Assembly: GCA_036404515.1 (NCBI GenBank)
Contig: DASWZK010000071.1
Span: 10,704-74,703, forward strand
Origin: Candidatus Limnocylindrales bacterium
GTDB taxonomy: Bacteria > Chloroflexota > Limnocylindria > Limnocylindrales > CSP1-4
Reading direction: 5' to 3'
DNA: 64,000 nt
The position numbers and the translations under genes were made by a program. This document shows positions 44,447-64,000 of the stretch, piece by piece; position 1 is the stretch's first letter; the number at the start of each line of letters is the position of its first letter. The notes under the pieces are model-generated. The model made no database searches, was not told the origin of the DNA, and saw nothing but the letters and a program-made list of their open reading frames with translations.

Positions 44447-44454
44447 GGGATCGG

Positions 44455-47624: not shown

Positions 47625-47626
47625 GT

Positions 47627-50455: not shown

Positions 50456-50529
50456 GACCTTTCGGAGCTTGCCTTTCCGAACGGGAGCCCAAACCGTCTC
50501 CCAGTGTGCAGCGGTGCTCGCCCCTCCCC

Positions 50530-50558: not shown

Positions 50559-50582
50559 TCCTGCAATCTACCGGCCGCTCGT

Positions 50583-50607
50583 GACGTGGGTGACCCCCAC
50601 GTCTTTT
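50583..50607 (+). terminator. Intrinsic-terminator-like hairpin (candidate leader attenuator upstream of nusA, or the proS terminator)
   Basis: GACGTGGG-tgacc-CCCACGTC is a perfect 8-bp stem followed by TTTT. It is the only hairpin plus T-run I found in an intergenic region. An outer helix GCCGCTC (50574-80) / GAGCGGC (50611-17) can also form. Confidence 0.55.
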
Positions 50608-50707
50608 GCTGAGCGGCTCGTGACTGACCGGCGGCCGAGTGGACGGACGCAGAGTCCAGGTCGGTCGCAGTCGATAGCAGCCGGGCACAAAGAACAGGAG
50701 GCGCGAA

Positions 50708-51967
50708 GTGAGTCGGGATTTCGTCGGCGCCCTCCTGCAGCTTAACGCCGAGAAGGGTGTCTCACGGGAGCAACTCATCCGGACCGTCGAGGAGGCTATT
50801 CAGGCCGCTTACCGCCGCACGGCGGGAGACGAGGACATCCAGGTTCGAATCGATGCCGATTCCGGGAAGGTGCGCGTTTTCCGGGCCCGCCTGGTAGTCG
50901 AAGAGGTCGACGACCCCACGACACAAACGACGGTGGCGGATGCGCAGGCCTACCTGCCGGGAGCCAAGGTCGGCGACCTCGTCGAGACCGAGCAACTCGA
51001 CCAGGAGGCCTTCGGCCGAATCCACGCCCAGACGGCCAAGCAGGTGGTCCTGCAGCGACTCCACGAAGCCGAACGCAACGTAGTCTTCGACCAGTACGCC
51101 AGTCGCGAAGGCGAGCTGATCACCGGCACGGTCTCGCGCATCGAGCCCAGAGCGATCATCCTGGATGTAGGCAAGGCCGAGGCCATTCTGGCCACGACCG
51201 AGCAGTCGCCCTTGGAGCATGCCCGCATTGGCCAGAACGTGAAGGCCTATGTTCTGGAGGTTCGACGCAGCGCAAAGGGCCCACAGATCTACGTCAGCCG
51301 AACCCACAAGGGTTTCCTGCGTCGCCTTTTCGAGCTGGAGGTTCCCGAGATCCACGCCGGAACCGTCGAGATCAAGGCCATTGCCCGCGAGGCGGGGAGC
51401 CGCTCCAAGGTCGCGGTGGCCTCGCGCCAGCAGGGCTTGGATCCGGTCGGCGCGACTGTCGGTCAGCGCGGCGCTCGCGTTCAAGCGGTCGTGGCGGAGC
51501 TTGGCGGCGAGAAGATAGACGTGATCGAATGGTCCGAGGACGCCTCCACCTTCGTCGCCAAGGCCCTGAGCCCGGCCCAGGTGATCGAAGTCAGGATCGA
51601 CGAAGAGCACCGCATCGCCAACGTCGTAGTGCCCGAACGGATGCTATCGCTGGCGATCGGCCGGGAGGGCCAGAACGCCCGGCTGGCGGCCAAGCTGACA
51701 GGATGGCGCATCGACATCCGCAGCGACGTTTCCGTAGCCGAAGCCGCCAGAGCCGAGGCGGAGACTCTGGCCGACGCGGAATCAGCGGTGGCAGATGCTC
51801 CGGGTCCCACGGCTGAGACCGCCGCTTCGGAGGCGGTTGCCGCGCCCGAGCTCGAACCGAATACTGTTCCCGTGGTCCCGGCTACCGCCGAGGCGCCGGC
51901 CAGGCCGAAGCGGCGCAAGGCCGCCAAATCGGCGGAGACCGACAATGATGCGGAGGTGGCCCCGTAG
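50708..51967 (+). CDS. nusA: Transcription termination/antitermination factor NusA
   Basis: N-terminal domain [15 protein letters not shown]1 domain [12 protein letters not shown], two KH domains ([31 protein letters not shown]), and an Ala/Glu-rich tail. AGGAGG lies upstream of the GTG. Confidence 0.9.
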
Positions 51968-51984
51968 CCCGGGGCGCGCCTCCA

Positions 51985-52266
51985 CGGCGGTATCCGACGC
52001 GATCGTGCGTCGTCTGTCGGACGGCGCGGCAGAAGCGCGAGCTGCTGCGGATCGTTCGGATGCCGGACGGCCGGATCGCCGTCGACCCGAGCGGTAAAAT
52101 GCCGGGCCGGGGAGCCTACGTGTGCGACAAGCAAGAGTGCCGGTCCGCGGCGCTGGACAAAGGATCGCTTCAGCGAGCGCTGACAGCACCGATCCCGGCC
52201 GAACTCCGGGCCGAGCTGACAGGGGAGGCGAGCAGGATCGAAGGAGGAAGTCGTGGCCAAGAGTAG
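51985..52266 (+). CDS. ylxR: YlxR/DUF448 family RNA-binding protein; 5' boundary unresolved
   Basis: In-frame translation [42 protein letters not shown] matches the YlxR signature. The first canonical start (ATG 52060) lies after the CxxC/ELLRIV motif. The frame is open from 51949. Confidence 0.65.
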
Positions 52267-54163
52267 GAGCGGCACGCGGGGCCGTCGTGGGCCTCGCAAG
52301 CCGGTGCGCCACGACCTTGGAACCCAGGGAGGCGCTGCTGCCGTCGCCGACCCGCGCGAACGCGGCGCGATCGAGCTGCCGTCGAGTATCACTGTCAAGG
52401 ACCTGGCAGATCTGCTCGGCGTCAACCCCGCCGACGTCATTCGCGAGCTGATCAAGAGCGGCATCTTCGCCAATATCAATCAGGGGATCGATCGCGAGAC
52501 GGCATCTCTCGTCGCCGAGGAACTCGGCTACGAGGTCGCCGAATCGGCCCAGATCGGCGGCGCCTCCAGTGGCGACGCCGCCTCGGGTGAGGCTGCGCCG
52601 ATAAGTGCCGCCACAAAGGAACAGCTGTACGAAGAGGACGATCCGAGCCTCCTCCAGCCTCGCGCCCCGATCGTGACCGTCATGGGCCACGTCGACCACG
52701 GTAAGACCTCCTTGCTCGACGCCATCCGCACTACCAAGGTCGCGGCGGGTGAGCGTGGCGGAATAACCCAGCGCATCGGCGCGAGCGAGGTCGTCAAGGA
52801 CGGGCGGCACATCGTCTTCCTCGATACGCCGGGCCACGAGGCCTTCACCGCGATGCGCGCCCGCGGAGCCAAGGTCACCGACATCGCGATCGTGGTTGTC
52901 GCGGCCGACGACGGCGTCATGCCCCAGACCCTCGAAGCGATCGACCACGCCCGGGCGGCCAAGGTTCCGATCATCATCGCCCTTAACAAGATGGACAAGG
53001 CGGATGCCAACCCGGACCGCGTAAAGAACAGCCTGGCCGAGGCCGGCGTTGTCGTCGAGGAATACGGCGGTGACGTGCCGATGGTGCCCGTTTCCGCGAA
53101 GGCTCTACTCGGCCTGGACGAGCTGCTCGAGATGATCAATCTCGTGGCTGATCTGCAGGAGCTAAAGGCCAATCCCAAGCGCCCCGCCGTGGGCACGATC
53201 GTCGAGGCGGAACTGGACAAGGGCCGCGGCCCGGTCGCGACTGCCCTGGTCCAGACCGGCACTTTGCGCGTGGGCGACGTCATCGTCGTGGGCGAGACAT
53301 ACGGCAAGGTCCGCGCTCTCGAGAATGCGCTCGGCAAACGCATCACCAAGGCCGGTCCTTCGAGCCCGGCCGTGGTTCTGGGCCTTGCCGACGTGCCGCA
53401 GGCAGGCGACATCTTGCGCGTTGTGGCCGACGAGAAGATCGCCCGCACGATGGTCGAGGAGCGGAAAGCAGCCTCGGCGGCGCGGTCGGAGGGGAGTGGC
53501 CGCGCCACTCTTGAGGATCTGTATGCGCAGATCCAGGCCGGTCAGACCAAGGAATTGCGGATCATCCTCAAGACGGACGTGTCGGGTTCGCTCGGCGCGA
53601 TCACACACGCCCTGGAGCAGCTGTCGACCGACGAGGTCCGGATCAACGTGCTCCATGAAGGCGCTGGCGACGTCACCGACAACGACATCATGCTGGCGGC
53701 CGCCTCGGATGCGATCGTTGTGGCGTTCAACACGAAGGTGACCGACACTGCCCGTCGCGCCGCCGAATCCGAGAAGGTCGACGTTCGTAACTACGACATT
53801 ATCTACAAGCTCACGGACGACATCTCCGCGGCCCTGCGCGGCATGCTCGAACCGGAGCAGGTCGAGACGGTGGAGGGTCGGGCGGAGGTTCGTCAGATCT
53901 TCAGGGTCGGCAAGGTCGCTGTCATCGCCGGTTGCTACGTGACGGACGGGCGCATCGTTCGTGCCGGTGGTGCTCGGGTCTGGCGCGGCGGCAAGGTGGT
54001 CGTAACAGACCGGATCGAGTCGCTACGCCGCTTCCGCGACGACGTCCGCGAAGTGGCCACCAACTTCGAGTGCGGCATCGGTCTGGCCGGCTCGAATGAC
54101 CTGGCTGAGGGCGACATCATCGAGTGCTTCACACAGCAGATGGTGAGCCGGGCGGCCGGTTGA
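52253..54163 (+). CDS. infB: Translation initiation factor IF-2
   Basis: [24 protein letters not shown] and NKMDK G-domain motifs. AAGGAGGA lies upstream of GTG 52253. Confidence 0.92.
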
Positions 54164-54182
54164 GCCGGGGTATCGGGTCTCA

Positions 54183-54743
54183 ATGACGCAGCGAACCGAG
54201 AGGATCGACGAGCTTCTTCGCCAGGAGATCGGCCGGGCGCTGGAGCGCGAAGTGACCGACCCCGGCATCGGGTTCGTCACCGTAACGGACGTCGAGACCA
54301 GTCCCGACCTGGCTCACGCGCGGGTCTGGGTCAGCGTCATTGGCACCGAGGAACGGCGCAAGGCGTCGCTGGCTGGGTTGCGGCGGGCGATGCCGTACAT
54401 ACGCCGCGGCCTGGCGTCGAAGATCAGGCTGCGCCGCATCCCCGAGCTGGAGGTGCGGCTCGACAGTTCCATCGAGCGAGGCACCCGGGTTCTCCAGATC
54501 ATCCACGATCTTGAAGAGGGCCGGACTCCGGACGGGTTGAGCCAGCCCAGTGAGTCTCTGCCAACGCCCCTGCCGCGCCTGCCGCACGAGGGCGACACTG
54601 TCGACGATCCGCTCGTTGAAGAGTCGTCCGGACACCTGGCGCGAAAGGCCGGAGCAACGGAGTCACGAAAGCGCGAAAGCCACATCGCGCCCGCGAAAGG
54701 GACCAGATCCGGGAAGCCAGCGGCTCGCAGGAGACCGCGGTGA
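54183..54743 (+). CDS. rbfA: Ribosome-binding factor A with a C-terminal extension
   Basis: RIDELLRQEIGRALEREVTDPGIGFVTVTDVETSPDLAHARVWVSV. Confidence 0.85.
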   Translation: MTQRTERIDELLRQEIGRALEREVTDPGIGFVTVTDVETSPDLAHARVWVSVIGTEERRKASLAGLRRAMPYIRRGLASKIRLRRIPELEVRLDSSIERGTRVLQIIHDLEEGRTPDGLSQPSESLPTPLPRLPHEGDTVDDPLVEESSGHLARKAGATESRKRESHIAPAKGTRSGKPAARRRPR

Positions 54744-55774
54744 ACGGTCACGGGCCGCGAGTAGACCTTTCCGAATACGCCGTTGCGGTACCTGAAGAGG
54801 TCCTGGACAGGCTGCGTTCGGCTCGGTGCGTCCTGGCTGTATGTCACGAGAACCCGGAGGCGGACGCATTGGGCTCTGCTCTGGCGGTCAGCCTCCTGGC
54901 CGAGTCGTTCGGGGGGAAGGCGACGCCGGTCTGCGCAGATCCGGTGCCAGCGATGTACGGCTTTCTGCCCGGCATGGACCGCTTTCGCCGTGAGCCCGAC
55001 TCAGCGTTCGACTACGACCTGATCGTGGTCGGCGACTGCGGCGAGCTCGAACGGGTCGGCCCAATCCTGGAGACTCATCGCGAGCTGTTCGAGCGAGTGC
55101 CGATTCTCAATATCGACCACCACATCTCCAACCCGCGCTTTGGCGCTGTGGATTGGGTGGATGCATCGAGCTCGGCCACCTGCGAGATGGTGACGTTGCT
55201 CGCGTTGCGGCTGGGAGTGCCGCTCACGACCGCGGACGGGATGCTCGCCTCGGCTCTGGCGGGCGGCGTGGTGATGGACACCGCCAACTTCCAGCATCCC
55301 AACGTGACGCCCCGGACGTTGGTCGTGGCTGCCGCCTTGAGAGAAGCGGGAGCGCCGTTGAGCGAGCTTGCGCGGCGCTTTTACCGCTCCAAGCCGAACA
55401 ATCAGCTGACGCTTTTTGGGCGAGTCCTCGCTCGCATGGAATCCGACCTGGCCGGCAGGCTCGTCTGGTCCACGCTCGAGCTCGCCGACCTCGTGGCAAG
55501 TGGTGCAGATCCGGCCGAGTCCGAGGGCCTGATCGATCTGCTCGCGCAGTCCGAGAGCTACGAGGTTGCGATCCTGTTCAAGGAGGGCGGCGACTCAACC
55601 CGCATCAGCATCCGGACGCGTGACGGGGGCGTCGACGCGACTGTACTCGCCGACACGTTCGGTGGCGGCGGCCACGCCCGGGCGGCCGGGGCCACGGTTG
55701 CGCTGCCACTTGACAAGGCCCGGGCGGCAGTTCGGGCACGGGCCGCGGCGCTCGTCGACGCAGTAGATCGCTGA
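54740..55774 (+). CDS. nrnA: DHH/DHHA1 phosphoesterase (NrnA-type nanoRNase / pAp phosphatase)
   Basis: CHENPEADALGS, NIDHH and FGGGGHARAAG motifs. In the conserved position between rbfA and truB. Confidence 0.8.
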   Translation: MNGHGPRVDLSEYAVAVPEEVLDRLRSARCVLAVCHENPEADALGSALAVSLLAESFGGKATPVCADPVPAMYGFLPGMDRFRREPDSAFDYDLIVVGDCGELERVGPILETHRELFERVPILNIDHHISNPRFGAVDWVDASSSATCEMVTLLALRLGVPLTTADGMLASALAGGVVMDTANFQHPNVTPRTLVVAAALREAGAPLSELARRFYRSKPNNQLTLFGRVLARMESDLAGRLVWSTLELADLVASGADPAESEGLIDLLAQSESYEVAILFKEGGDSTRISIRTRDGGVDATVLADTFGGGGHARAAGATVALPLDKARAAVRARAAALVDAVDR

Positions 55775-55776
55775 AG

Positions 55777-57648
55777 ATGCCGCCGACGGGTCGGGGAGTG
55801 GACGGGGTCCTTGTCGTTCGGAAGGACCCCGGCTTCACGTCACAGGACGTCGTTGCCGTGGTCCGGCGACTGACTGCAACGCGCCGTGCCGGCCACGGCG
55901 GAACCCTCGATCCATTTGCCTCGGGCGTTCTGCCGATCTTCCTTGGGCTCGCCACACGCCTGGTCGAATACCACATGGGCGACGACAAGGCATATCGGGC
56001 GACGGTGTGCTTCGGTGCGACCTCCGAGACTGACGACCGAGAGGGCGAGCTCGTACCCGGGTCCGGTCCGGGCCCGACGCGGGAGGCAGTGGAGGCGGCC
56101 CTGGCCGGCTTTCGCGGCCGCATCCAGCAGCGACCGCCGGCCTACAGCGCGCTCAAGGTCGGCGGACGCCGAGCTTATCAGCTGGCCCGGCAGGGAACAC
56201 CGCCCCAGCTGGCGCCGCGCCCGGTGACGATCGGCCGCCTCGATCTGGTCGAATGGGACGGATCCGACCCGGAGCGCCCCACGGCAGTTCTCGAGGTGGA
56301 GTGCGGAGCGGGCACTTACATCCGATCTCTGGCCCGCGATCTTGGTGAGCGGCTTGGCTGCGGCGCTTATCTCGGGGCCCTCGTCCGCACGGCCAGCGGA
56401 CCGTTCGCGCTGCCGGCCGCGCACTCGCTCGACGATATCCGTCGGGCGGCGGCCGACGGCCCCGGTGCGCTGGCCCGGGTCCTCTTGCCGGTCGACGCTG
56501 GGCTGGAGGTCGTACCGGAGGCGGTGCTTACCGGCCCTGAGGTTGCCGCTGCAGCGCGCGGCCAGCAGGTCAAGCCGACTCACCGGCCCGCGCTCGAGCA
56601 AGGAACGCGCGTCCGGCTGCTGACCGAGGATCGTGCATTGGTGGGCATCGGATCGTGGAAGGGCGGCCGCCTGGTGCCCGAGAAGATCTTCGTGGCCGCC
56701 CCGCTGCCGGCCGGCTCCGGTTCTACGGCAGAAGCGACAGCCGACGCCGCGACCGGCGTCACTCATTTGATCGAGCCGCGGCTGCGAGTGGTCGACACGC
56801 ACAACCGCATGGCCGTCGCGGCCGGCATCAGTGCTCTCGGAGCCGATTTCGGTCGACTCTACGTGGCGGTGGGTGTCTTCGACGGCCTCCACCGCGGTCA
56901 CCTGTATCTTCTCCGCGAGCTGCGTCGGGCTGCCCGCGACGCCGGCGCGCGAGCCGCGGTCATCACGTTCGACGCCCATCCGGAGGAGCTGATCGAGGGC
57001 CTCGCGCCGCCGCTGCTGTGCGATCCAGACGAGCGCCTCGTGCGCCTGCAGGCCGCCGGCGTCGAGGTCACGGTCGTGCAGCATTTCGACCACGCTCTCC
57101 GAATCACCCCATACGAAGCGTTCGTGGCGGCAATCCGCGAGCGGGTCGACTTGGCCGGCTTCGTCATGACCCCAGATGCCGCTTTCGGGTTCGAGCGCGG
57201 AGGCACCGCGGAGACGCTCGCTTCTCTCGGCGAGCGGGAGGGCTTCTCGGTCAAGGTCGTCTCTTCGTTCCTTTCCAACGGGGAGCAGGTCCGAAGCTCG
57301 GAGATCCGTCGCCGCATCGCCGCCGGGGATCTGTCCGGAGCCAGGCAGCTCCTCGGCCGATTGCACGGCTTCAGCGGCCGGCTCGCTTCGAGCGACACTT
57401 CCGCCGGCGTCCCCCTGATCTTCGAGCTGCCCGTCTCGCTCCCTCCGACGGGCCGCTATGAGGCGCTCGTCGGGCCGTCGTGGCGACTTGGCCGGCTTGC
57501 CGAGCCGGCCTCGATTGCGGCGGTGGCCGCGATTCTGGAGGGGCAGGTGCGGCTCGAGATGACCACCGCGCCGTCTGCCGACGAGGTCCGAGTGGTCCTG
57601 CTCCAGGCCGTCCGGGACGGTGTCCGGGACGGTGTGACTCTCGCCTGA
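55777..57648 (+). CDS. truB: Single ORF fusing tRNA pseudouridine55 synthase TruB (with PUA domain) to an FMN adenylyltransferase (RibF N-terminal module) and a divergent C-terminal module
   Basis: aa 1-305: GHGGTLDPFASGVLPI, YRATVCFG, GTYIRSLARDLG and a PUA-like end. aa ~355-520: VGVFDGLHRGHLYL, VITFDAHP, SSEIRRRI, LLGR. The last ~95 aa lack the usual riboflavin-kinase motifs. No stop occurs between the modules. Confidence 0.85.
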   Translation: MPPTGRGVDGVLVVRKDPGFTSQDVVAVVRRLTATRRAGHGGTLDPFASGVLPIFLGLATRLVEYHMGDDKAYRATVCFGATSETDDREGELVPGSGPGPTREAVEAALAGFRGRIQQRPPAYSALKVGGRRAYQLARQGTPPQLAPRPVTIGRLDLVEWDGSDPERPTAVLEVECGAGTYIRSLARDLGERLGCGAYLGALVRTASGPFALPAAHSLDDIRRAAADGPGALARVLLPVDAGLEVVPEAVLTGPEVAAAARGQQVKPTHRPALEQGTRVRLLTEDRALVGIGSWKGGRLVPEKIFVAAPLPAGSGSTAEATADAATGVTHLIEPRLRVVDTHNRMAVAAGISALGADFGRLYVAVGVFDGLHRGHLYLLRELRRAARDAGARAAVITFDAHPEELIEGLAPPLLCDPDERLVRLQAAGVEVTVVQHFDHALRITPYEAFVAAIRERVDLAGFVMTPDAAFGFERGGTAETLASLGEREGFSVKVVSSFLSNGEQVRSSEIRRRIAAGDLSGARQLLGRLHGFSGRLASSDTSAGVPLIFELPVSLPPTGRYEALVGPSWRLGRLAEPASIAAVAAILEGQVRLEMTTAPSADEVRVVLLQAVRDGVRDGVTLA

Positions 57649-57793
57649 TTGGATGCAACGCGTTATCCCGGGCGTGTCAGGATCCGATCGGGTGGCAGTG
57701 GCGGTGTGGCGCGGGCGGTCGAACCCTGTTACCATCCGCCAGGCATTTAGAGAGTAAGCAAGACCACAGTCACAGAGCTATTCGGAGGATCGT

Positions 57794-58063
57794 GTGCCGC
57801 TCGCGCGGGAGACGAAGGAACAGGTGATCTCGGAGTACGCCGTCAAAGATGGCGACACGGGCTCAGCGGAGGTGCAGATAGCACTCCTGACCGAGAGGAT
57901 CAAGGAGTTGACGGAGCACCTGCGAAGCTTCCCAAAGGATAACCAATCCCGCCGCGGCCTCCTCAAGCTCGTCGGAGAGCGACGCCGCCTTCTCAGGTAC
58001 CTGATCAAGAAGGACAACGCTCGCTATCGCGCCGTCATCGCACGGCTCGGACTGCGCCGCTAG
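57794..58063 (+). CDS. rpsO: 30S ribosomal protein S15
   Basis: [51 protein letters not shown]. Confidence 0.92.
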
Positions 58064-58073
58064 CGCACCGGCC

Positions 58074-58101
58074 GCTTCGCGAGGCGGTGTCCTCGCGAAG
58101 C
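58074..58101 (+). promoter_or_regulatory. Long perfect hairpin in the rpsO-pnp intergenic region (candidate rpsO 3' stabiliser or RNase III processing site)
   Basis: GCTTCGCGAGG-cggtgt-CCTCGCGAAGC is an 11-bp perfect stem starting 11 nt after the rpsO stop. No U-tract follows. Confidence 0.45.
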
Positions 58102-58144
58102 CGCCCCGCGCCCGGCTCGTCCAGGCGAGAACAAGGGCACGCCC

Positions 58145-58166
58145 TTCCTCCTAGGCTCAGGAGGAA
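58145..58166 (+). promoter_or_regulatory. Shine-Dalgarno-sequestering hairpin of pnp
   Basis: TTCCTCCT-aggctc-AGGAGGAA is an 8-bp perfect stem. Its 3' arm is the only SD (AGGAGG 58159-64) upstream of the pnp GTG at 58176. Confidence 0.45.
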
Positions 58167-58175
58167 TACAAGCTC

Positions 58176-60764
58176 GTGTCTCAGACATTCGAGACGCAAT
58201 TCGCCGGTCGCACCCTGACCATCGAGACCGGCAAGCTGGCTCTGCTCGCAGGCGGGGCCGTCACTGTTCGCTTCGGCGACACCATGGTCCTTGGGACGGC
58301 CAACCGGTCCGACCCACGGCCCGGACTCGACTTCTTCCCTCTGACCGTCGAGTTCGAAGAGCGCATGTACGCCGCCGGCAAGATTCCCGGCGGCTTTATC
58401 AAGCGAGAGTCGCGCCCGTCCGAGCAGGCGATTCTGGCTTGCCGGCTGACCGACCGGCCCATCCGGCCGCTCTTCCCCGAGGGTTACAAGGACGACGTCC
58501 AGATCGTGATCACGGTCCTCTCCACGGATCAGGAGAACCAGCCCGACATCCTCGGCACGTTCGCTGCCTCATGTGCGCTGACGATCAGCGAGATCCCATT
58601 CCTCGGGCCCATCGGCGCCGTCCGCATCGGTCGCATTGACAGCGAGTTCGTCGTCAACCCCACGGTCGCCGACCTCGAGCGATCGGACATCGATCTCGTC
58701 GTCTCGGGCACCCGCGACGCCATCATGATGGTCGAGGCCGGGGCCTCGATCGTGCCGGAGGAAGTGATGGCGGAGGCCATTCTCTTTGGCCACCGTTCCA
58801 TCCAGCCGCTTATCGACATCCAGGAACAGATGCGTGCTGCCGTCGGCAAGCCCAAGTCCGTCGGCTACCTGGAGCCCGGCACGGGCTCCGTCCTCGAGTT
58901 CGTCAAGCAGGCCAGCCAACCCGGCTTCGAGGTGGTCGTTCTCGACGTCGAGACGACCGGCCGCGACCCCAAGGTCGCCGATTTGATCGAGATCGGCGCG
59001 GTTCGCGTCCGGGACGGCCAGATCGTTGATCGCTTTTCGACATTCGTCAGTCCCGGCCGCGAGATCTTCGGTGCCCAGATGCACGGCATCACCACTGCGG
59101 ATGTGGCCGGCGCCCCGGTCGCCCGTGAGGCTGCTGAGAAACTGCTCGCCTTCGTCGGTGGCTCCCCAGTCATCGGCCACAACGTCGGCTTCGACCTCGG
59201 CTTCCTCGATGCCGCCCTCGGCGAGACCGGGAAGTTCATCACGGGCGGGTATTTCGACACCCTGGTGATTGCTCGCGAGGCCTACCCGGACCTCGAGTCG
59301 TACAAGCTAAGCGACATCGCTCGCTTCTTCGGCATTGAAGTGGCGACCGCCCATCGTGGTCTGGCCGACGCCGAAACCACTGCGGCCATCGTCGCTCGCT
59401 TCGCCGACGATCTCTCGGCCCGAATCGCGAACCTGCAGGACGCGATCACCATCTCGATCCGTGCCAACCGCACCGAGGGCGAAGATCCGGCCGGCCTGCT
59501 CGACGCGGCCCGCCGCCAGGCCCGCGTCAGCAAGAGCCTCTTCCAGCTGGTTCAGAAGAAGACCGTCCGCAACGTGGTCCTCGACGAGGGGATCCGAATC
59601 GACGGCCGGGGCGTTGACGAGCTCCGACCGATCTCCGTGGAGGTCGGCGTTCTGCCGCGCGCCCACGGGTCGGGCCTCTTCACCCGCGGCCAGACCCAGG
59701 CTCTGACGGTAGCCACGCTCGGCCCGGCCTCCGACGTCCAGCGCATCGACACGATCAGCCCGGAGACCGAGAAGCGATACCTCCACCACTACAACATGCC
59801 GCCATACAGCACCGGTGAGAATAAGCCGATGCGCGGTCCAGGCCGGCGTGAAATCGGCCACGGCCACCTGGCTGAGCGGGCGTTGCTGCCGGTCCTGCCG
59901 TCCGAGGATGAGTTCCCGTATGTCATCCGCCTCGTCAGCGAGTGCGTGACGTCCAACGGATCTACTTCGATGGCCTCGACCTGCGGCTCGAGCCTGGCCC
60001 TCATGGACGCCGGTGTGCCGATCAAGGCCGCCGTCGGCGGTGCCGCGATGGGCCTCATCAGCGAGCCCGATGGCCGCTTCGTGGTCCTGACCGACATCCT
60101 CGGCAAGGAAGACGCTTTCGGCGACATGGACTTCAAGGTGACCGGCACCCGAGAGGGCGTCACGGCGCTGCAGATGGACATCAAGGTCAAGGGCATCAGT
60201 GAGGCGATCATTCGCCAGGGCCTCCAGAAGGCCCACGCCGCTCGGATGGCCATTCTGGACAAGATGGACGCGGTCATCTCTTCAAGCCGCACCGAGATGA
60301 GCAGCTTCGCGCCGCGCATCATCACCATCAAGATCAACCCCGAGAAGATCCGCGACATCATCGGCAAGGGCGGCTCGGTGATCCGCAAGATCCAGGAGGA
60401 GACCGGCACCGAGATCAACGTCGAGGATGACGGCACCGTCCAGATCGCCGCAGTGTCGGGCGATAGCTCGCGCAAGGCGGTCCAATGGATCGAGTCGCTC
60501 ACCCGCGAGGTCGAGGTCGGCGGGCTCTATCTGGGCAAGGTCACTCGGATCATGGGCTTCGGCTGCTTCGTCGAGATCCTGCCCGGCAAGGAAGGTCTGA
60601 TTCGTATAGGCGAGCTGGCCGATTACCACGTGCCGACGGTTGAGGACGTGGTTTCGGTGGGAGATGAAGTGATGGTCGTGGTCGTCGAGATCGATCGGCA
60701 GGGCCGGATCAACCTCTCGCGCAAGGCGGCCATGCAGCGCCACCTCGCTCGCACCGAGGCCTAG
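58176..60764 (+). CDS. pnp: Polyribonucleotide nucleotidyltransferase (PNPase) carrying an inserted DEDDh exonuclease domain
   Basis: RNase PH core 1 (FFPLTVEFEERMYAAGKIPGGFIKRE), core 2 (RIDGRGVDELRPI, HHYNMPPYSTGE, GSSLALMDAGVP), KH (IGKGGSVIRKIQEETG) and S1 (GKVTRIMGFGCFVEI). At 862 aa it is about 150 aa longer than usual. Confidence 0.92.
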   Translation: MSQTFETQFAGRTLTIETGKLALLAGGAVTVRFGDTMVLGTANRSDPRPGLDFFPLTVEFEERMYAAGKIPGGFIKRESRPSEQAILACRLTDRPIRPLFPEGYKDDVQIVITVLSTDQENQPDILGTFAASCALTISEIPFLGPIGAVRIGRIDSEFVVNPTVADLERSDIDLVVSGTRDAIMMVEAGASIVPEEVMAEAILFGHRSIQPLIDIQEQMRAAVGKPKSVGYLEPGTGSVLEFVKQASQPGFEVVVLDVETTGRDPKVADLIEIGAVRVRDGQIVDRFSTFVSPGREIFGAQMHGITTADVAGAPVAREAAEKLLAFVGGSPVIGHNVGFDLGFLDAALGETGKFITGGYFDTLVIAREAYPDLESYKLSDIARFFGIEVATAHRGLADAETTAAIVARFADDLSARIANLQDAITISIRANRTEGEDPAGLLDAARRQARVSKSLFQLVQKKTVRNVVLDEGIRIDGRGVDELRPISVEVGVLPRAHGSGLFTRGQTQALTVATLGPASDVQRIDTISPETEKRYLHHYNMPPYSTGENKPMRGPGRREIGHGHLAERALLPVLPSEDEFPYVIRLVSECVTSNGSTSMASTCGSSLALMDAGVPIKAAVGGAAMGLISEPDGRFVVLTDILGKEDAFGDMDFKVTGTREGVTALQMDIKVKGISEAIIRQGLQKAHAARMAILDKMDAVISSSRTEMSSFAPRIITIKINPEKIRDIIGKGGSVIRKIQEETGTEINVEDDGTVQIAAVSGDSSRKAVQWIESLTREVEVGGLYLGKVTRIMGFGCFVEILPGKEGLIRIGELADYHVPTVEDVVSVGDEVMVVVVEIDRQGRINLSRKAAMQRHLARTEA
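58917..59420 (+). other. DEDDh 3'-5' exonuclease (DnaQ/RNase T-like) domain inserted in the PNPase inter-core helical region
   Basis: aa ~248-415 of Pnp carry Exo I FEVVVLDVETTG, Exo II PVIGHNVGFDLGFL, and Exo III AHRGLADAETT (H-x4-D). Order and spacing match the DnaQ superfamily. Confidence 0.8.
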
Positions 60765-60877
60765 CTTCGCAAGGGACGAGGGCGGCCGGTCGAACGGTCG
60801 TCCATCGTCCGCGCATGCATAGGGTGGGTGCATAACAGACCGCGTATGCACCTTGCCGGGGAGCAGCGGCCGGTCGC

Positions 60878-60886
60878 TGGTATACT
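60878..60886 (+). promoter_or_regulatory. Candidate extended -10 promoter element upstream of asd
   Basis: TGGTATACT (TGn + TATACT) in the pnp-asd gap. GTG 60893 lies 7 nt downstream. Confidence 0.35.
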
Positions 60887-60892
60887 CGGTCG

Positions 60893-61999
60893 GTGCCCGA
60901 GGTCTCAAGAAGTTTGAGCGGAGCCATGCCCCGAGAACCTTTCCAGCTTACCGTCGCGGTCGTCGGCGCCACCGGTGTCGTCGGTCGAACGATGGTCCAG
61001 GTGCTTGCCGAACGGAGCTTTCCGGTCGGAGAGCTTCGCTTGCTGGCCTCCGGTCGCTCCGCCGGCTCTACCGTCAGTGCCGGTGGGCGGACGCTGACCG
61101 TAGGGGAGGCGATTCCGGACGCCTTCGCTGGCGTCGACATCGCCCTCTTCTCGGCAGGCACCGAGGTGTCGCGCCAGCTCGCTCCCGAAGCGGCTGCCCG
61201 TGGCGCTACGGTCATAGACAACTCAAGCGCCTGGCGGATGGAGGCGGGCGTACCGCTCATAGTCAGCCAGGTGAACCCCGGCGACGCTGAGTGGCACGAG
61301 GGCATCATCGCCAATCCGAATTGCTCGACCATGCAGCTCATGCCTGTTTTGATGGCCATCCGCGACACGGTTGGGATAGAACGTGTCGTCGTGGATACAT
61401 ACCAGTCGGTTTCTGGAACCGGCGCGGCGGCGCTGGCCGAGCTCGAGACGCAGATTCGGGCTCACGTCGCCGGCGAGTCGAAGGTGGCGAGCGTCTACCC
61501 GCACCCGATCGCCTTCAACGTTCTACCCGAAATCGACGTCTTTCTTGACAACGGCTACACGCGCGAGGAGTGGAAGGTCGTCACCGAGACCCGCAAGATC
61601 CTGCACCTGCCAGGACTGCGAATCTCGTGCACGGCCGTCCGCGTCCCCGTCTTTGTGAGCCACTCGGAAGCTGTCCACGTCGAGACCGCAAAGCCTATTA
61701 CGCCCGACCAGGCCAGACGCGCATTCGCAGCCGTGCCAGGTGTCGTCGTCATGGACGATCCGGCCGCCCACGTCTATCCGATAGCGACTCAGGCGGCCGG
61801 CAAGGATGAGGTGTACGTTGGCCGGGTCAGGCAAGACCCCTCGGTGGAGCACGGGCTGGCTTTCTGGGTCGTCAGCGATAACCTTCGCAAAGGCGCTGCC
61901 ACGAACGCCATCGAGATCGCCGAAGTACTCCTTGAGCGCGGCTGGGTGAAGGCTCGGTCCCGCCGCGAATTGCCGCGCGAGGCCGGGGACGTATCGTGA
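60893..61999 (+). CDS. asd: Aspartate-semialdehyde dehydrogenase
   Basis: VAVVGATGVVG, NPNCSTMQLM, SGTG, VRVPVFVSHSEAV motifs. The start is either GTG 60893 (7 nt after a TATACT box, possibly leaderless) or ATG 60926. Confidence 0.9.
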   Translation: MPEVSRSLSGAMPREPFQLTVAVVGATGVVGRTMVQVLAERSFPVGELRLLASGRSAGSTVSAGGRTLTVGEAIPDAFAGVDIALFSAGTEVSRQLAPEAAARGATVIDNSSAWRMEAGVPLIVSQVNPGDAEWHEGIIANPNCSTMQLMPVLMAIRDTVGIERVVVDTYQSVSGTGAAALAELETQIRAHVAGESKVASVYPHPIAFNVLPEIDVFLDNGYTREEWKVVTETRKILHLPGLRISCTAVRVPVFVSHSEAVHVETAKPITPDQARRAFAAVPGVVVMDDPAAHVYPIATQAAGKDEVYVGRVRQDPSVEHGLAFWVVSDNLRKGAATNAIEIAEVLLERGWVKARSRRELPREAGDVS

Positions 62000-62772
62000 T
62001 CGAACCCGAGCGCCTGGCGGCGCTCGATGCAATCGGGGCGGAAGTGGCAGCCTGTACCCGTTGCCCCCTGCATCGAACCAGAACCAGGGCCGTTCCAGGA
62101 GAAGGAACCGCAGCGACGGAGGTCATGTTCGTGGGTGAAGGCCCGGGTTTCAACGAGGATCGTCAGGGCAGGCCCTTCGTAGGTCAGGCCGGCGCGCTCC
62201 TCGACGAGCTGCTCAGATCGGTCGGCTGGTCCCGAGAGGAGGTCTTCATCACCAACGTCGTCAAGTGCCGCCCGCCTGAGAACCGCGACCCTGAGCCTGT
62301 GGAGATCGCCGCATGCGCGCCGTTCCTGACCCGGCAGCTCGCGGCTCTGGACCCCGCCTTGGTGGTCACCCTCGGCCGTTTCTCGATGGCGCGATTCAAT
62401 CCGGGGGCGCGGATCGGCCAGGTCCACGGCACCTTCTGCGAGGCGGATCCCCGGTCCGGCGCTCCGGACGCTCTGACCTATGCTATGTACCACCCGGCCG
62501 CGGCCCTGCACCAGGGATCGCTGAAGGCCACACTCTTGCGCGACATGAAGGGCGTGCCGGCCGCGCTCCTGGAAGCTCGCAGGCGGCGCGGCGCCGGTAT
62601 TGAGGGCGGCACGCCCTTTTCGGATCTCGACGAGCCGGAGCGGGGGCCGCGCGCCGAGCGTGCGGAGCCGGGCGAGCGACCTGAGCCTCAGGGCGATGCC
62701 TTCACGGGCTCTGTCCGTTCGGTTGGGCTGGCTGCAGAATCCAACCCCACGGACCAGCTCACCCTCTTCTAG
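61996..62772 (+). CDS. Family-4-type uracil-DNA glycosylase (Fe-S) with a C-terminal extension
   Basis: CTRCPLHRTRTRAVPGEG, FVGEGPGFNEDRQGRPFVGQAG and VVKCRPPENR motifs. GTGA overlap with asd. Confidence 0.8.
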   Translation: MIEPERLAALDAIGAEVAACTRCPLHRTRTRAVPGEGTAATEVMFVGEGPGFNEDRQGRPFVGQAGALLDELLRSVGWSREEVFITNVVKCRPPENRDPEPVEIAACAPFLTRQLAALDPALVVTLGRFSMARFNPGARIGQVHGTFCEADPRSGAPDALTYAMYHPAAALHQGSLKATLLRDMKGVPAALLEARRRRGAGIEGGTPFSDLDEPERGPRAERAEPGERPEPQGDAFTGSVRSVGLAAESNPTDQLTLF

Positions 62773-62810
62773 GATGCACACAACTGGACTGTCACTTCAC
62801 ACGAGCATCG

Positions 62811-64000
62811 ATGCCTGACAATCAGACCCCGCTCCGCATCATCCCCCTCGGAGGCGTGGGGGAGATCGGCAAGAACATGTACGTCTTCGAGTACGGCGAC
62901 GACATCGTCGTTGTCGATTGCGGGCTCATGTTCCCCGACGAAGAGATGTTCGGGATCGACCTCGTCATCCCCGACGTCACATACCTCCGGGAGAACCGAG
63001 ACAAGGTTCGCGCCTTCCTGATAACCCACGCCCACGAAGATCACGTTGGCGGTCTGGCGTACGTTCTGCCGTACCTTCCGGGCGTGCCGGTGTATGCCTC
63101 TACGCTGGCGCGCGGTCTGCTCGGCATCAAGATCAAGGAGCACAAGCTCCACGACAACCCGCTCCTGCCTCTCGATCCGGGTGACAAGCTTCAAATCGGG
63201 CCGTTCCGCATCGAGCCGTTCCGGGTAAGCCACTCGATCCCGGACGCAATGGGGCTCGCCCTCCACACGCCGGTCGGGACCGTTGTGACCACCGGAGACT
63301 TCAAGTTCGACCACACGCCGGTTGACGGTCGCCGATCGGACTTCGCCGTCCTGTCGCGACTTGGCGAGGACGGGGTGATCTGCCTCCTCTCCGACTCAAC
63401 TCGTGCCGAGAACCCCGGCTACACGCTCTCGGAGCGGACGGTGGGCGAGACGTTCCGCGAGATCATGGAGCCGCTCGAAGGTCGGGTCATCGTGGCCACG
63501 TTCGCCAGCAACATCGCCCGAATCCAGCAGGTGATGGATGCGGCGGCCACGTTCGATCGCCGGGTTGCGGTCGTCGGTCGGTCCATGGAACAGAACTTCC
63601 GCATTGCCACCGACCTGGGGTATCTGACCTATGCCCCCGGCCAGGTCCTGCCAAAGGATCAGATCGGATCGGTGCCAGCCAATCGGCTTGTGATCGCCAC
63701 GACCGGCGCCCAGGGCGAGCCCATGGCCGGACTGGCCCGCATGGCAAATCGCGATCATCGCTTCGTCGAGATCCAGGTCGGCGACACCGTCATCGTCAGC
63801 GCCAGCCCGATCCCCGGCAACGAGGAGTACGTGGCGCGCACGATCGACAACCTGTTCAAGGCCGGGGCCAACGTCTATTACCACACCGTCAAACACGCTC
63901 ACGTTTCGGGCCACGCCAGCCAGGAAGAGCTCAAGCTGATGCTCGGCCTGACCCGGCCGAAGTACTTCATTCCAATCCACGGCGAGTTCCGAATGCTCGT
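62811..64000 (+). CDS. rnj: Ribonuclease J (beta-CASP metallo-beta-lactamase), 3'-truncated by the window edge
   Basis: From ATG 62811: LRIIPLGGVGEIGKNMYVFEYGDDIVVVDCG, ITHAHEDHVGG, SDSTRAENPG, and HVSGHASQEELKLM. The frame is open to the window end. It is not in the ORF track because no stop is reached. Confidence 0.85.
   Translation, partial: MPDNQTPLRIIPLGGVGEIGKNMYVFEYGDDIVVVDCGLMFPDEEMFGIDLVIPDVTYLRENRDKVRAFLITHAHEDHVGGLAYVLPYLPGVPVYASTLARGLLGIKIKEHKLHDNPLLPLDPGDKLQIGPFRIEPFRVSHSIPDAMGLALHTPVGTVVTTGDFKFDHTPVDGRRSDFAVLSRLGEDGVICLLSDSTRAENPGYTLSERTVGETFREIMEPLEGRVIVATFASNIARIQQVMDAAATFDRRVAVVGRSMEQNFRIATDLGYLTYAPGQVLPKDQIGSVPANRLVIATTGAQGEPMAGLARMANRDHRFVEIQVGDTVIVSASPIPGNEEYVARTIDNLFKAGANVYYHTVKHAHVSGHASQEELKLMLGLTRPKYFIPIHGEFRML

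What the first reader, a model, noticed from the sequence alone, without database searches (positions are those of the whole stretch)
58917..59420. PNPase with a complete DEDDh (DnaQ/RNase T-like) 3'-5' exonuclease domain inserted between its two RNase PH cores
The pnp ORF (58176..60764) is 862 aa, about 150 aa longer than the canonical ~700-740-aa bacterial enzyme. RNase PH core 1 and the start of the helical linker (FGHRSIQPLIDIQEQMRAAVGKPKS) read normally. Residues ~248-415 then read FEVVVLDVETTG (Exo I, D-x-E), PVIGHNVGFDLGFL (Exo II) and AHRGLADAETT (Exo III, H-x4-D). The spacings of ~85 and ~55 aa are as in the epsilon/RNase T/oligoribonuclease superfamily. Afterwards the linker resumes (KSLFQLVQKKTVRNVVLDEGIRIDGRG) and runs into core 2, KH and S1. 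All five catalytic positions are retained, there is no stop or frameshift, and codon usage matches the flanks. One polypeptide would therefore combine a phosphorolytic and a hydrolytic 3' exonuclease. I do not know of a description of this architecture. Possible roles, all speculative: clearing the short oligonucleotide end products PNPase cannot finish, trimming structured 3' ends, or acting on DNA/RNA hybrids.
Basis: partly seen in the sequence, partly recalled or inferred. Interest (0 to 1): 0.85.

Follow-up and report, generated by a model that had tools for sequence, protein, structure and literature searches.

The report
PNPase carrying a built-in DEDDh exonuclease
In a whole class of environmental bacteria (Limnocylindria, Chloroflexota), the universal RNA-degrading enzyme PNPase carries a complete, conserved second nuclease domain of the DNA-proofreading type spliced into its linker domain; this two-active-site design does not appear to have been described or tested.

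Summary
ORF 58176..60764 encodes an 862-aa PNPase that passes the curated PNPase model. It has a full Pfam RNase_T/DEDDh domain (aa 254-405, E=7e-29) nested in the helical linker between the two RNase PH cores.

It is not an assembly artefact. The exact protein lies on 8 independently assembled contigs. The insert with both junctions matches 126 stretches in species-representative genomes, nearly all labelled Chloroflexota/Limnocylindria, and more than 240 protein clusters carry the architecture.

The five catalytic residues (D257, E259, D340, H393, D398) are invariant in 55/55 orthologues while the domain diverges to about 45% identity. Median dN/dS is about 0.31. Codon usage matches the host gene, and insert and core distances co-vary (r=0.97). 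This points to one ancient acquisition kept under selection, even in 1.3-Mb genomes.

By sequence and predicted fold, the module belongs to the DinG/PolC/epsilon branch, not to RNase T or Orn. It sits on the ring face opposite KH/S1, beside the side pore to the phosphorolytic site.

Most likely it is an active hydrolytic 3'-5' exonuclease working alongside phosphorolysis. Whether the substrate is RNA ends, short oligonucleotides, DNA or RNA-DNA hybrids is unresolved.

No description was found in the literature. I rate it a new variant of known kinds, of moderately high interest.

The parts
58176..60764 (+). pnp ORF, 862 aa: PNPase with a nested DEDDh domain
   Evidence: TIGR03591 scores 945 bits (cutoff 525).
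58176..58856 (+). RNase PH core 1 (aa 1-227), including the 'GGFIKRE' RNA-binding loop and the first linker helix
   Evidence: Aligns to S. aureus PNPase 18-242. 109 of 227 columns are invariant and dN/dS is 0.17.
58857..58922 (+). N-terminal connector (aa 228-249): a low-confidence loop followed by a short helix at 237-246
   Evidence: Poorly conserved: 2 of 22 columns invariant, dN/dS 0.46.
58923..59420 (+). DEDDh (DnaQ-like) 3'-5' exonuclease domain, aa 250-415
   Evidence: PF00929 E=7e-29. NF005906, DinG and PolC models E 1e-46 to 1e-36. AF2 pLDDT about 85-97. Foldseek: DinG, PolC, epsilon.
58944..58952 (+). Exo I motif, D257-x-E259
   Evidence: Invariant in 55/55. Aligned to the PolC 'DfE' motif.
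59178..59195 (+). Exo II motif, H335-N-x-x-F-D340
   Evidence: H335, F339 and D340 invariant; N336 in 54/55.
59352..59369 (+). Exo III motif, H393-R-x-x-x-D398 (the 'h' of DEDDh)
   Evidence: H393, R394 and D398 invariant in 55/55.
59421..59543 (+). C-terminal part of the helical linker domain (aa 416-456). The Exo III helix continues as one long helix (395-432), followed by helix 438-449.
   Evidence: AF2 models. PF03726 positions 53-80 match aa 451-478.
59544..60275 (+). RNase PH core 2 (aa 457-700), carrying the phosphorolytic site motifs 'SNGSTSMAS' and 'GDMDFKVTGT'
   Evidence: Aligns to 5yjj 315 onward. 149 of 244 columns invariant, dN/dS 0.14.
60321..60494 (+). KH domain (aa 716-773)
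   Evidence: PF00013 E=5.8e-12.
60510..60725 (+). S1 domain (aa 779-850)
   Evidence: PF00575 E=6e-16.
57794..58063 (+). rpsO (ribosomal protein S15), the canonical upstream partner of pnp
   Evidence: TIGR00952. Directly upstream in 55 of 56 loci.
54740..55774 (+). Context: DHH/DHHA1 NrnA-like protein, a candidate nanoRNase, in the same gene cluster
   Evidence: Pfam DHH and DHHA1. NrnA model E=1e-21 but 77 bits against a cutoff of 350. Present upstream in 51 of 56 loci.

Best explanation
SHOWN:
- This is the housekeeping PNPase of the class Limnocylindria, sitting in the canonical rpsO-pnp slot.
- A complete DinG/PolC/epsilon-type DEDDh 3'-5' exonuclease domain was inserted once, anciently, into its all-alpha linker domain.
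- Both catalytic centres are conserved, and the module has been inherited vertically under purifying selection.

INFERRED from published PNPase structures and the AF2 model:
- Each trimer displays three DEDDh modules on the ring face opposite the KH/S1 RNA-capture face.
- Each module is mounted through a continuous long helix on the helical domain that lines the side pore to the phosphorolytic site.

PROPOSED MECHANISM:
- The module is an active, two-metal, hydrolytic 3'-5' exonuclease working in cis with the phosphorolytic ring on RNA 3' ends. This gives one particle a phosphate-independent activity that releases NMPs alongside the phosphate-dependent activity that releases NDPs.
- The most likely job is to finish or trim what the ring cannot handle: short oligoribonucleotide limit products, or 3' ends too short or too close to structure to thread through the channel.
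- This would be a covalent version of the recurring partnership between RNase-PH rings and DEDD nucleases.
For: Architecture and reality:
- Domain and family hits.
- The exact protein is on 8 contigs; the three places shown come from two ENA assemblies and one NCBI assembly, with identical neighbours.
- 120 + 120 clusters at 90% identity all carry PF00929 within a PNPase, on contigs up to 2.2 Mb.
- 126 stretches in species-representative genomes match the insert with both junctions at 88 to 38% identity.

Catalytic competence:
- D257, E259, D340, H393 and D398, plus T260, T261, H335 and F339, are invariant in 55/55 while the domain falls to about 45% identity.
- Median dN/dS is 0.31, against 0.41-0.46 for the adjacent linker and 0.14-0.21 for the cores and KH-S1.
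- The insert is retained in Limnocylindrus, whose genomes are reduced to about 1.3 Mb (PMC13212565).

Single ancient acquisition:
- Insert and core pairwise distances correlate at r=0.97 with slope 1.65, and codon usage matches the host gene.

PNPase part intact:
- TIGR03591 is above its cutoff, and the phosphate-binding and metal motifs are invariant.

Fold:
- Sub-region model has pLDDT 85.5. Top Foldseek hits are the DinG exonuclease, PolC (rmsd 1.9 A) and epsilon (TM about 0.8).

Position:
- The helical domain lies opposite S1/KH and forms part of a pore giving access to the active site (PMC2723993).

Precedents for cooperation between a PH ring and a DEDD nuclease on RNA:
- REXO2 scavenges the 4-5-nt products of PNPase-SUV3 and thereby speeds the degradosome (PMC7261184).
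- The Caulobacter degradosome contains both PNPase and RNase D, and that paper notes the parallel with Rrp6 and the exosome (PMC4245959).

Relatives can cut RNA:
- S. aureus DinG degrades ssRNA. [quoted passage not shown]
Against: - No enzymatic data exist.
- Every close relative of the module outside PNPase sits in a DNA-metabolism architecture: PolC, DinG helicases, GIY-YIG/UVR, BRCT, and VRR-NUC fusions.
- A DHH/DHHA1 NrnA-like gene is conserved in the same cluster (51 of 56 loci), so the lineage probably already has a nanoRNase.
- A family-4 uracil-DNA glycosylase is conserved just downstream (55 of 60 loci), a weak hint of a DNA connection.
- Coordinates of the models could not be inspected, and no trimer was modelled. 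The distance and orientation of the DEDDh site relative to the pore are therefore not known.
- The full-length model is poor in the cores (mean pLDDT 61.7).
Confidence: 0.5

Rival explanations
1. DNA-directed or hybrid-directed module. [quoted passage not shown] It would equip PNPase for DNA-end processing, R-loop removal or repair, extending the DNA-related roles already reported for PNPase in Bacillus.
For: - The best family and structure matches are PRK07883 DEDD exonucleases, the DinG N-terminal exonuclease, the PolC proofreading domain and epsilon.
- The nearest non-PNPase relatives among 1.84 billion representatives are all DNA-enzyme architectures.
- B. subtilis DinG prefers ssDNA and RNA-DNA hybrids, and PNPase is cited there as a processor of DNA 3' tails (PMC12525004).
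- A family-4 UDG is conserved downstream of pnp.
- The NrnA-like neighbour makes a nanoRNase role less necessary.
Against: - The host is the single-locus housekeeping RNA exonuclease, with intact KH and S1 domains, in the rpsO-pnp operon.
- DEDDh enzymes of this branch discriminate poorly between sugars (S. aureus DinG cuts ssRNA).
- The insert is retained in Limnocylindraceae, which are reported to have shed much DNA repair (PMC13212565).
- The udg4 adjacency is usually interrupted by asd (47 of 55 loci), and no function has been linked to it.
Confidence: 0.25
2. Tail editing or proofreading for PNPase's synthetic mode. Where poly(A) polymerase I is absent, PNPase makes heteropolymeric 3' tails. 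A proofreading-type exonuclease on the same polypeptide would trim or limit those tails, or would reverse polymerisation when phosphate is scarce.
For: - The module descends from polymerase-associated proofreading exonucleases.
- PAP I is sporadic in Chloroflexota and was acquired there by horizontal transfer (PMC13514080), so PNPase is the likely tailing enzyme. That last step is an inference.
- The module sits next to the pore thought to carry NDP and phosphate traffic (PMC2723993).
Against: - The idea rests purely on analogy.
- PNPase itself removes tails by phosphorolysis.
- There is no evidence about tails in this class.
Confidence: 0.08
3. Mainly structural or regulatory domain. The insert would act as a gate on the side pore, a nucleotide or oligonucleotide sensor, or a docking platform for partners (a degradosome substitute), with catalysis secondary or lost in practice.
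For: - The helical domain is dynamic and affects PNPase activity (PMC2723993).
- The insert evolves 1.65 times faster than the cores.
- A rigid helical connection is predicted.
Against: - All five metal- and base-binding residues and the flanking motif residues are invariant across the deepest divergence. That is hard to explain without catalysis.
- Inactivated DEDD domains normally lose these residues (general knowledge).
Confidence: 0.07
4. Artefact: a chimeric assembly, a recent mobile insertion, or a gene-calling error that fuses two genes.
For: None, beyond the unusual length of the ORF.
Against: - The same junctions appear in hundreds of independent assemblies from NCBI, ENA, JGI and Logan, including contigs of 1-2 Mb.
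- There is no compositional or codon-usage break.
- The insert has co-diverged with the host gene.
- PNPase sequence continues in frame on both sides.
Confidence: 0.01

Closest known systems
Canonical bacterial, organellar and human PNPase (TIGR03591; PDB 5yjj, 3cdi, 4am3, 1e3h, 7ld5, 8zaw, 3u1k)
   Same: - The order RNase PH core 1, helical linker, RNase PH core 2, KH, S1.
- Conserved RNA-binding loop and phosphate/metal motifs.
- The rpsO-pnp gene order.
- The curated model score is passed.
   Different: - About 157 extra residues form a complete second catalytic domain inside the helical linker.
- None of the solved PNPases matched has the extra domain.
- Only the last 28 positions of Pfam's helical-domain model are recognisable.
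DnaQ-like DEDDh exonuclease modules of DinG (PDB 8zef, 9ii8), PolC (2p1j, 9qrn), epsilon (1j53, 2gui) and PRK07883 DEDD proteins
   Same: - The Exo I, II and III motifs.
- The fold: rmsd 1.9-2.6 A and TM about 0.8 normalised to the target.
- 26-36% identity to the solved structures, and up to 49% to DinG-like metagenomic proteins.
- In PolC the same type of module is also nested inside another domain, the PHP domain. This is a precedent for its insertion as a cassette.
   Different: - The host here is an RNA phosphorylase, not a DNA polymerase or helicase.
- It fails the equivalog cutoffs of every named family: epsilon TIGR01406 81 bits against 223, DinG 126 against 789, PRK07883 152 against 495.
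Eukaryotic exosome with Rrp6, and the Caulobacter degradosome (PNPase + RNase D)
   Same: A PH-type ring is physically combined with a DEDD-superfamily hydrolytic 3'-5' exonuclease for RNA processing or decay (PMC4245959).
   Different: - Those partners are separate polypeptides of the DEDDy (RNase D/Rrp6) branch, recruited non-covalently.
- Here a DEDDh module of the DnaQ branch is covalently nested in the ring subunit, at three copies per trimer.
PNPase-SUV3 with REXO2, or E. coli PNPase with Orn (nanoRNA scavenging in trans)
   Same: A DEDDh hydrolase finishes the 2-5-nt products that PNPase leaves, and this relieves product inhibition (PMC7261184).
   Different: - REXO2 and Orn are free dimeric enzymes of a different DEDDh branch.
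- Orn ranks low among the structural neighbours of this insert.
- This lineage also keeps an NrnA-like gene.

Membership tests
Polynucleotide phosphorylase (PNPase, TIGR03591 / EC 2.7.7.8) | Scores above the curated whole-protein cutoff of the equivalog model | tested here: met
   TIGR03591 scores 944.8 bits (cutoff 525) and NF008805 scores 943.7 bits (cutoff 471), each in two stretches that flank the insert.
Polynucleotide phosphorylase (PNPase, TIGR03591 / EC 2.7.7.8) | Two RNase PH-like cores followed by KH and S1 domains | tested here: met
   Pfam RNase_PH x2, RNase_PH_C x2, KH_1 and S1. Foldseek top hits are all PNPases, E about 1e-45.
Polynucleotide phosphorylase (PNPase, TIGR03591 / EC 2.7.7.8) | Conserved phosphorolytic-site motifs in core 2 (phosphate-binding 'SNGSxSM', metal-binding 'GDMDFKV') and the RNA-binding loop in core 1 | tested here: met
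   These align residue for residue with S. aureus and Anabaena PNPase and are invariant in 56 sequences. The assignment of roles to these motifs comes from my own knowledge of E. coli PNPase.
Polynucleotide phosphorylase (PNPase, TIGR03591 / EC 2.7.7.8) | A contiguous all-alpha linker domain (PF03726) between the cores | tested here: inconclusive
   Only model positions 53-80 match (aa 451-478). In-silico excision of the insert at five different cut points does not restore positions 1-50. The AF2 model still predicts five helices around the insert.
Polynucleotide phosphorylase (PNPase, TIGR03591 / EC 2.7.7.8) | Homotrimeric ring with phosphorolytic activity | not testable with these tools
   Only monomer models without coordinates were available, and no biochemistry was possible.
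DEDDh exonuclease superfamily (Pfam RNase_T PF00929; DnaQ-like) | Pfam domain above the gathering threshold over the full model length | tested here: met
   101.9 bits (cutoff 24), model positions 1-163 of 164.
DEDDh exonuclease superfamily (Pfam RNase_T PF00929; DnaQ-like) | Exo I D-x-E, Exo II D and Exo III H-x4-D at positions homologous to characterised members | tested here: met
   D257/E259, D340 and H393/D398 align with the motifs of PolC 2p1j, PolC 9qpc and DinG 8zef. All are invariant in 55/55.
DEDDh exonuclease superfamily (Pfam RNase_T PF00929; DnaQ-like) | RNase H-like alpha/beta fold | tested here: met
   Sub-region AF2 model has pLDDT 85.5. Foldseek: DinG, PolC, DnaQ and epsilon at E 5e-11 to 6e-9, rmsd about 2 A.
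DEDDh exonuclease superfamily (Pfam RNase_T PF00929; DnaQ-like) | Metal-dependent 3'-5' exonuclease activity | not testable with these tools
   Requires enzymology.
DNA polymerase III epsilon subunit (DnaQ proper) | Scores above the cutoff of the epsilon equivalog models | tested here: not met
   TIGR01406 81-85 bits against 222.7; NF004316 72-76 against 196. Only the broad domain model TIGR00573 is reached, and only by the excised insert (72.7 against 71.5). This explains JGI's automatic name 'DNA polymerase III epsilon subunit family exonuclease'.
RNase T / oligoribonuclease (RNA-specific DEDDh enzymes) | Closest sequence and structural affinity to RNase T or Orn | tested here: not met
   RNase T reaches only E=4e-5 over a partial stretch in the PDB sequence search. 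Neither family appears among the 25 best NCBIfam hits. Structurally RNase T has TM about 0.65 and Orn ranks 37th, both below DinG, PolC and epsilon.

The most novel reading that the evidence does not exclude
The two active sites are physically coupled. The side pore lined by the helical domain would deliver the ring's short limit products, or a backtracked 3' end, directly into the grafted DEDDh site. One particle would then degrade RNA completely to mononucleotides and could switch between phosphorolysis (yielding NDPs and conserving energy) and hydrolysis (independent of phosphate) according to phosphate supply. That would amount to a self-contained bacterial 'mini-exosome' suited to oligotrophic, phosphate-poor habitats.
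Probability: 0.2. Interest if true: 0.8.

Novelty: new variant of a known kind. Interest (0 to 1): 0.6.

Why it matters
PNPase is one of the best-studied and most conserved RNA-decay enzymes, and its five-domain layout is usually treated as fixed from bacteria to humans. Here an entire bacterial class, abundant in lakes, soils and peat, has carried a sixth domain that is itself a nuclease, over deep evolutionary time and even through drastic genome reduction.

If the domain is active, this is the first PNPase with two different exonuclease chemistries in one chain. It would be a natural covalent version of the pairing between PH rings and DEDD nucleases, which eukaryotes (exosome-Rrp6), mitochondria (PNPase-REXO2) and Caulobacter (degradosome-RNase D) assemble from separate proteins.

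The system offers a tractable way to ask three questions:
- why phosphorolytic rings so often need a hydrolytic helper;
- what the enigmatic helical domain and its side pore do;
- whether PNPase's proposed DNA roles can be strengthened by evolution.

It also matters for annotation. JGI pipelines label hundreds of these proteins 'DNA polymerase III epsilon subunit family exonuclease', while NCBI labels them plain PNPase, which hides the extra domain.

Tried and rejected
1. Misassembly or chimera: rejected. The exact protein was found in independent ENA and NCBI assemblies, and there are hundreds of orthologues with the same junctions.

2. Recent horizontal insertion: rejected. There is no GC or codon-usage break, and the insert has co-diverged with the cores.

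3. Paralogy. Two MAGs each appeared to carry two copies (L045/L053 and L062/L070). The copies are syntenic contigs 86-94% identical at the DNA level, so these are mixed bins and not paralogues. Whether a second, canonical pnp exists elsewhere in these genomes could not be tested.

4. Clean insertion or partial replacement of the helical domain. Removing the insert in silico at five different cut points did not recover Pfam PF03726 positions 1-50, so this is inconclusive by sequence. The AF2 secondary structure suggests the helices are still there.

5. Other PNPase lineages with this insert. In an exhaustive HMMER search of 1.84 billion representatives, only Limnocylindria-type PNPases (many of them fragments) span the junctions. 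All 20 other architectures I checked are PolC, DinG-like, GIY-YIG/UVR, BRCT or VRR-NUC proteins.

6. Taxonomic origin of the nearest free-standing relatives: the cluster look-up returned no organism names.

7. Second DEDDh or PNPase copy, or any Rfam element, in the window: none found.

8. The full-length AF2 model came out mediocre (pLDDT 61.7), because the available alignment (two clades, with highly conserved cores) carries little covariation. Only the sub-region model is used for fold statements. Neither model's coordinates could be inspected, so no distances were measured.

9. Seven literature searches and a class-specific genomics paper found no mention of the architecture. One further search attempt failed on a term that was too short.

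10. 'The insert replaces a missing nanoRNase': downgraded after finding the conserved NrnA-like gene.


Full report

Yes. The window contains a single uninterrupted ORF at 58176..60764 (+), 862 aa. Pfam finds the full PNPase domain set: RNase_PH x2, RNase_PH_C x2, KH at 716-773 and S1 at 779-850. It also finds a full-length RNase_T/DEDDh domain at aa 254-405 (E=7.1e-29, 101.9 bits against a gathering score of 24). The curated PNPase equivalog TIGR03591 scores 945 bits (cutoff 525), in two stretches interrupted by the insert.

Sequence comparison with solved PNPases shows collinear alignment of aa 1-227 and 457-853. Query aa 228-456 (229 residues) stand where S. aureus PNPase has 72 residues of helical linker.

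The finding's coordinates, 58917..59420, are exactly aa 248-415. The only correction is numbering: the Exo I acidic residues are D257 and E259, not D255 and E257.

**2. Is it an artefact?**

No.
- The exact 862-aa protein lies on 8 contigs. The three places shown come from two ENA assemblies and one NCBI assembly, with the same neighbours.
- The 120 best clusters at 90% identity (89-100% identical to the query; NCBI, JGI, ENA and Logan; contigs up to 2 Mb) all combine PF00929 with the PNPase domains.
- A second search, seeded with the most divergent orthologue, returned another 120 such clusters.
- Scanning one genome per GTDB species with the insert plus both junctions gave 126 matching stretches. 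The 79 loci fetched fall from 88% to 38% identity with full-length coverage. Nearly all are labelled Chloroflexota or Limnocylindria, including Limnocylindrus and Aquidulcis.
- GC content shows no discontinuity.
- The insert's synonymous codon usage cannot be told apart from the rest of the gene: cosine 0.929, against 0.926 +/- 0.027 for same-size segments of the rest.

**3. Conservation and selection**

I extracted 54 full-length orthologues from the loci. Results:
- D257, E259, D340, H393 and D398 are invariant in 55/55. So are T260, T261, H335, F339 and R394. Over the same set, the DEDDh domain as a whole drops to about 45% identity between the deepest clades, while the cores stay at 65-76%.
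- Median Nei-Gojobori dN/dS over 1108 pairs is 0.31 for the DEDDh domain. It is 0.14-0.17 for the two PH cores, 0.21 for KH-S1, and 0.41-0.46 for the helical remnants on either side. The pairs are not independent and dS is high for inter-clade pairs, so these figures are descriptive.
- Pairwise distances in the insert and in the cores correlate at r=0.97 with a slope of 1.65.

Together these indicate one ancient acquisition, vertical inheritance, and continued purifying selection focused on the catalytic centre.

The insert is also kept in Limnocylindrus. According to PMC13212565, those genomes have shrunk to about 1.3 Mb.

The PNPase active-site motifs ('SNGSTSMAS', 'GDMDFKVTGT', the 'GGFIKRE' loop and 'RREIGHG') are invariant as well. 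Both catalytic centres therefore look functional.

**4. What kind of DEDDh domain is it?**

- By profile, the best NCBIfam matches are PRK07883-type DEDD exonucleases (E about 1e-46), the DinG N-terminal exonuclease (about 1e-37) and the PolC proofreading domain (about 1e-36). No equivalog cutoff is reached. Neither RNase T nor oligoribonuclease is among the best 25 families.
- By PDB sequence search, the order is T. maritima PolC exonuclease (6e-25), PolC, DinG, DnaQ, Cas2-DEDDh and epsilon. RNase T reaches only 4e-5.
- A confident AF2 model of aa 195-480 (pLDDT 85.5, pTM 0.78) gives the same order by Foldseek: S. aureus DinG, PolC (rmsd 1.9 A over 173 columns), a DnaQ domain and epsilon (TM about 0.8). 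RNase T (TM about 0.65), ExoX, ExoI and Orn follow.
- An exhaustive HMMER search of 1.84 billion representative proteins found that only Limnocylindria-type PNPases, many of them fragments, span the junctions. The next-best proteins match only the exonuclease part at 30-49% identity.
- All 20 of those that I checked are DNA-metabolism architectures: three DEDDh domains plus GIY-YIG and UVR; two DEDDh domains plus BRCT; DinG-like helicases; PolC, where the module is itself nested in the PHP domain; and a FAN1-like VRR-NUC fusion.

So the module comes from the DNA-side DnaQ branch, and no other PNPase lineage was found to carry it.

**5. Where does it sit?**

In both AF2 models the region 240-480 is confident. 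The elements run in this order:
- a linker helix at 210-223;
- a low-confidence loop;
- a short helix at 237-246;
- the alpha/beta DEDDh fold (strands 252-260, 270-279, 282-290, 332-334 and 359-361);
- the Exo III helix, which continues without a break as one long helix (395-432);
- two further helices (438-449 and 453-471) leading into core 2.

The helical domain therefore appears to be retained around the insert. Pfam, however, recognises only its last 28 positions, even after in-silico excision of the insert, so by sequence this is inconclusive.

Nurmohamed et al. 2009 (PMC2723993) show that the helical domain lies on the face of the torus opposite S1/KH. [quoted passage not shown] They propose that the pore carries NDP and phosphate traffic.

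By inference, a trimer would carry three DEDDh modules on that distal face, next to those pores, each mounted on a long helix and not on a floppy tether. I could not inspect model coordinates or model the trimer, so the exact geometry is unknown.

**6. Genomic context**

The window carries the classical cluster: proS, nusA, infB, a DHH/DHHA1 NrnA-like gene, a truB-FAD synthetase fusion, rpsO, pnp, asd and a family-4 UDG.

Across the fetched loci:
- rpsO is directly upstream in 55 of 56;
- the NrnA-like gene is upstream in 51 of 56;
- a family-4 UDG is downstream on the same strand in 55 of 60. In 47 of these asd lies between, and in 8 it is directly adjacent to pnp.

This gene is therefore the orthologue of the housekeeping pnp. 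No second PNPase or DEDDh copy and no Rfam element occur in the window.

**7. How it most likely works**

The evidence shows an intact phosphorolytic ring subunit with a conserved and apparently catalytically complete hydrolytic 3'-5' exonuclease grafted on beside the side pore. The step from this to function is inference.

I favour cooperation on RNA 3' ends (confidence about 0.5). In this view a phosphate-independent activity releasing NMPs finishes short limit products, or trims ends that cannot thread the channel.

Reasons in favour:
- The host is the housekeeping RNA exonuclease.
- PH rings repeatedly team up with DEDD hydrolases. REXO2 scavenges the 4-5-nt products of PNPase-SUV3 and accelerates decay (PMC7261184). 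In Caulobacter, RNase D sits with PNPase in the degradosome, and that paper notes the parallel with Rrp6 and the exosome (PMC4245959).
- Relatives of the module do cut RNA. S. aureus DinG cuts ssRNA. B. subtilis DinG cuts the RNA strand of hybrids, and ssRNA when Mn2+ is present (PMC12525004).

Reasons against:
- The module's ancestry is entirely on the DNA side.
- A probable nanoRNase (the NrnA-like gene) is conserved nearby.
- A UDG is conserved downstream.

These support the main rival (about 0.25): a role directed at DNA or RNA-DNA hybrids, building on PNPase's reported processing of DNA ends.

Minor rivals are editing of PNPase-made tails (about 0.08; PAP I is sporadic in Chloroflexota) and a mainly structural or gating role (about 0.07). 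The invariance of the catalytic residues disfavours the structural role. An artefact is effectively excluded.

**8. Novelty and verdict**

Both component families are well known, and so is the idea of pairing a PH ring with a DEDD nuclease. A PNPase that carries the nuclease as a nested domain is not something I could find described. Seven full-text searches and a 2026 comparative-genomics paper devoted to this class (PMC13212565) make no mention of it.

Databases annotate it either as plain PNPase (NCBI) or, misleadingly, as 'DNA polymerase III epsilon subunit family exonuclease' (JGI).

I classify it as a new variant of a known kind. Function is unresolved but directly testable. Interest: 0.6.

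Noticed in passing
window 55777..57648 (+): TruB (tRNA pseudouridine-55 synthase) is fused in one 623-aa ORF to an FAD-synthetase (RibF N-terminal, PF06574) domain. No riboflavin-kinase domain was detected in the last ~85-115 residues. In the more distant Limnocylindria clades only the TruB part matches at this position, so the fusion seems specific to the window's clade.
   Followed up: partly
window 54740..55774 (+); conserved in 51 of 56 related loci: A DHH/DHHA1 protein sits in the classical rbfA/nrnA/truB slot. It matches the NrnA model only weakly (E=1e-21, 77 bits against a cutoff of 350). It is a candidate nanoRNase or pAp phosphatase that travels with the DEDDh-PNPase across the class.
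   Followed up: partly
window 61996..62772 (+); L040:9054-9737 (Limnocylindrus sp.): A family-4 uracil-DNA glycosylase (TIGR00758: 196 bits in the window and 185 bits in Limnocylindrus, cutoff 125) is conserved downstream of pnp in 55 of 60 loci. PMC13212565 reports loss of 'UDG family 4 (TIGR03914), Ung and Mug' in Limnocylindraceae. TIGR03914 is the UdgX-type model, which these proteins miss (about 120 bits against a cutoff of 190). A canonical family-4 UDG may therefore have been overlooked in that analysis.
   Followed up: partly
proteins P0002, P0005 and many others: JGI/IMG automatic annotation names hundreds of these PNPases 'DNA polymerase III epsilon subunit family exonuclease'. The excised insert just reaches the TIGR00573 domain cutoff (72.7 against 71.5 bits). 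NCBI names them plain PNPase. Neither name reveals the architecture.
   Followed up: yes
loci L009, L012, L015, L026, L034, L064, L068, L078: In these MAGs the pnp gene is split over two or three reading frames. These are probably frameshift errors of the assemblies and not pseudogenes, because each fragment remains highly similar to the intact gene.
   Followed up: no
L045/L053 (JBILBX01) and L062/L070 (JBPCOK01): Two MAGs each contain two contigs with the DEDDh-pnp locus. The contigs are 94% and 86% identical at the DNA level, flanks included. This indicates mixed populations in one bin and not gene duplication.
   Followed up: yes
L052 (CAMAXG010000001.1), L028, L037, L058: Some records carry labels at odds with the locus, for example 'Thermoflexus hugenholtzii JAD2 isolate MH-08apr19-222' and 'uncultured Anaerolineaceae bacterium'. 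The L052 pnp locus groups with the Limnocylindrus/Aquidulcis clade at about 68% identity to the window protein, the same as its neighbours in the list. The taxonomy labels are probably wrong.
   Followed up: no
proteins P0130, P0135, P0142, P0146, P0261 (metagenomic; no taxonomy): The nearest non-PNPase relatives of the insert include unusual multi-nuclease architectures: three tandem DEDDh domains plus GIY-YIG and UVR (1045 aa), two DEDDh domains plus BRCT, and a FAN1-HTH + VRR-NUC + DEDDh fusion.
   Followed up: no
window 1..64000: No Rfam family reaches its gathering score anywhere in the 64-kb window, on either strand.
   Followed up: no
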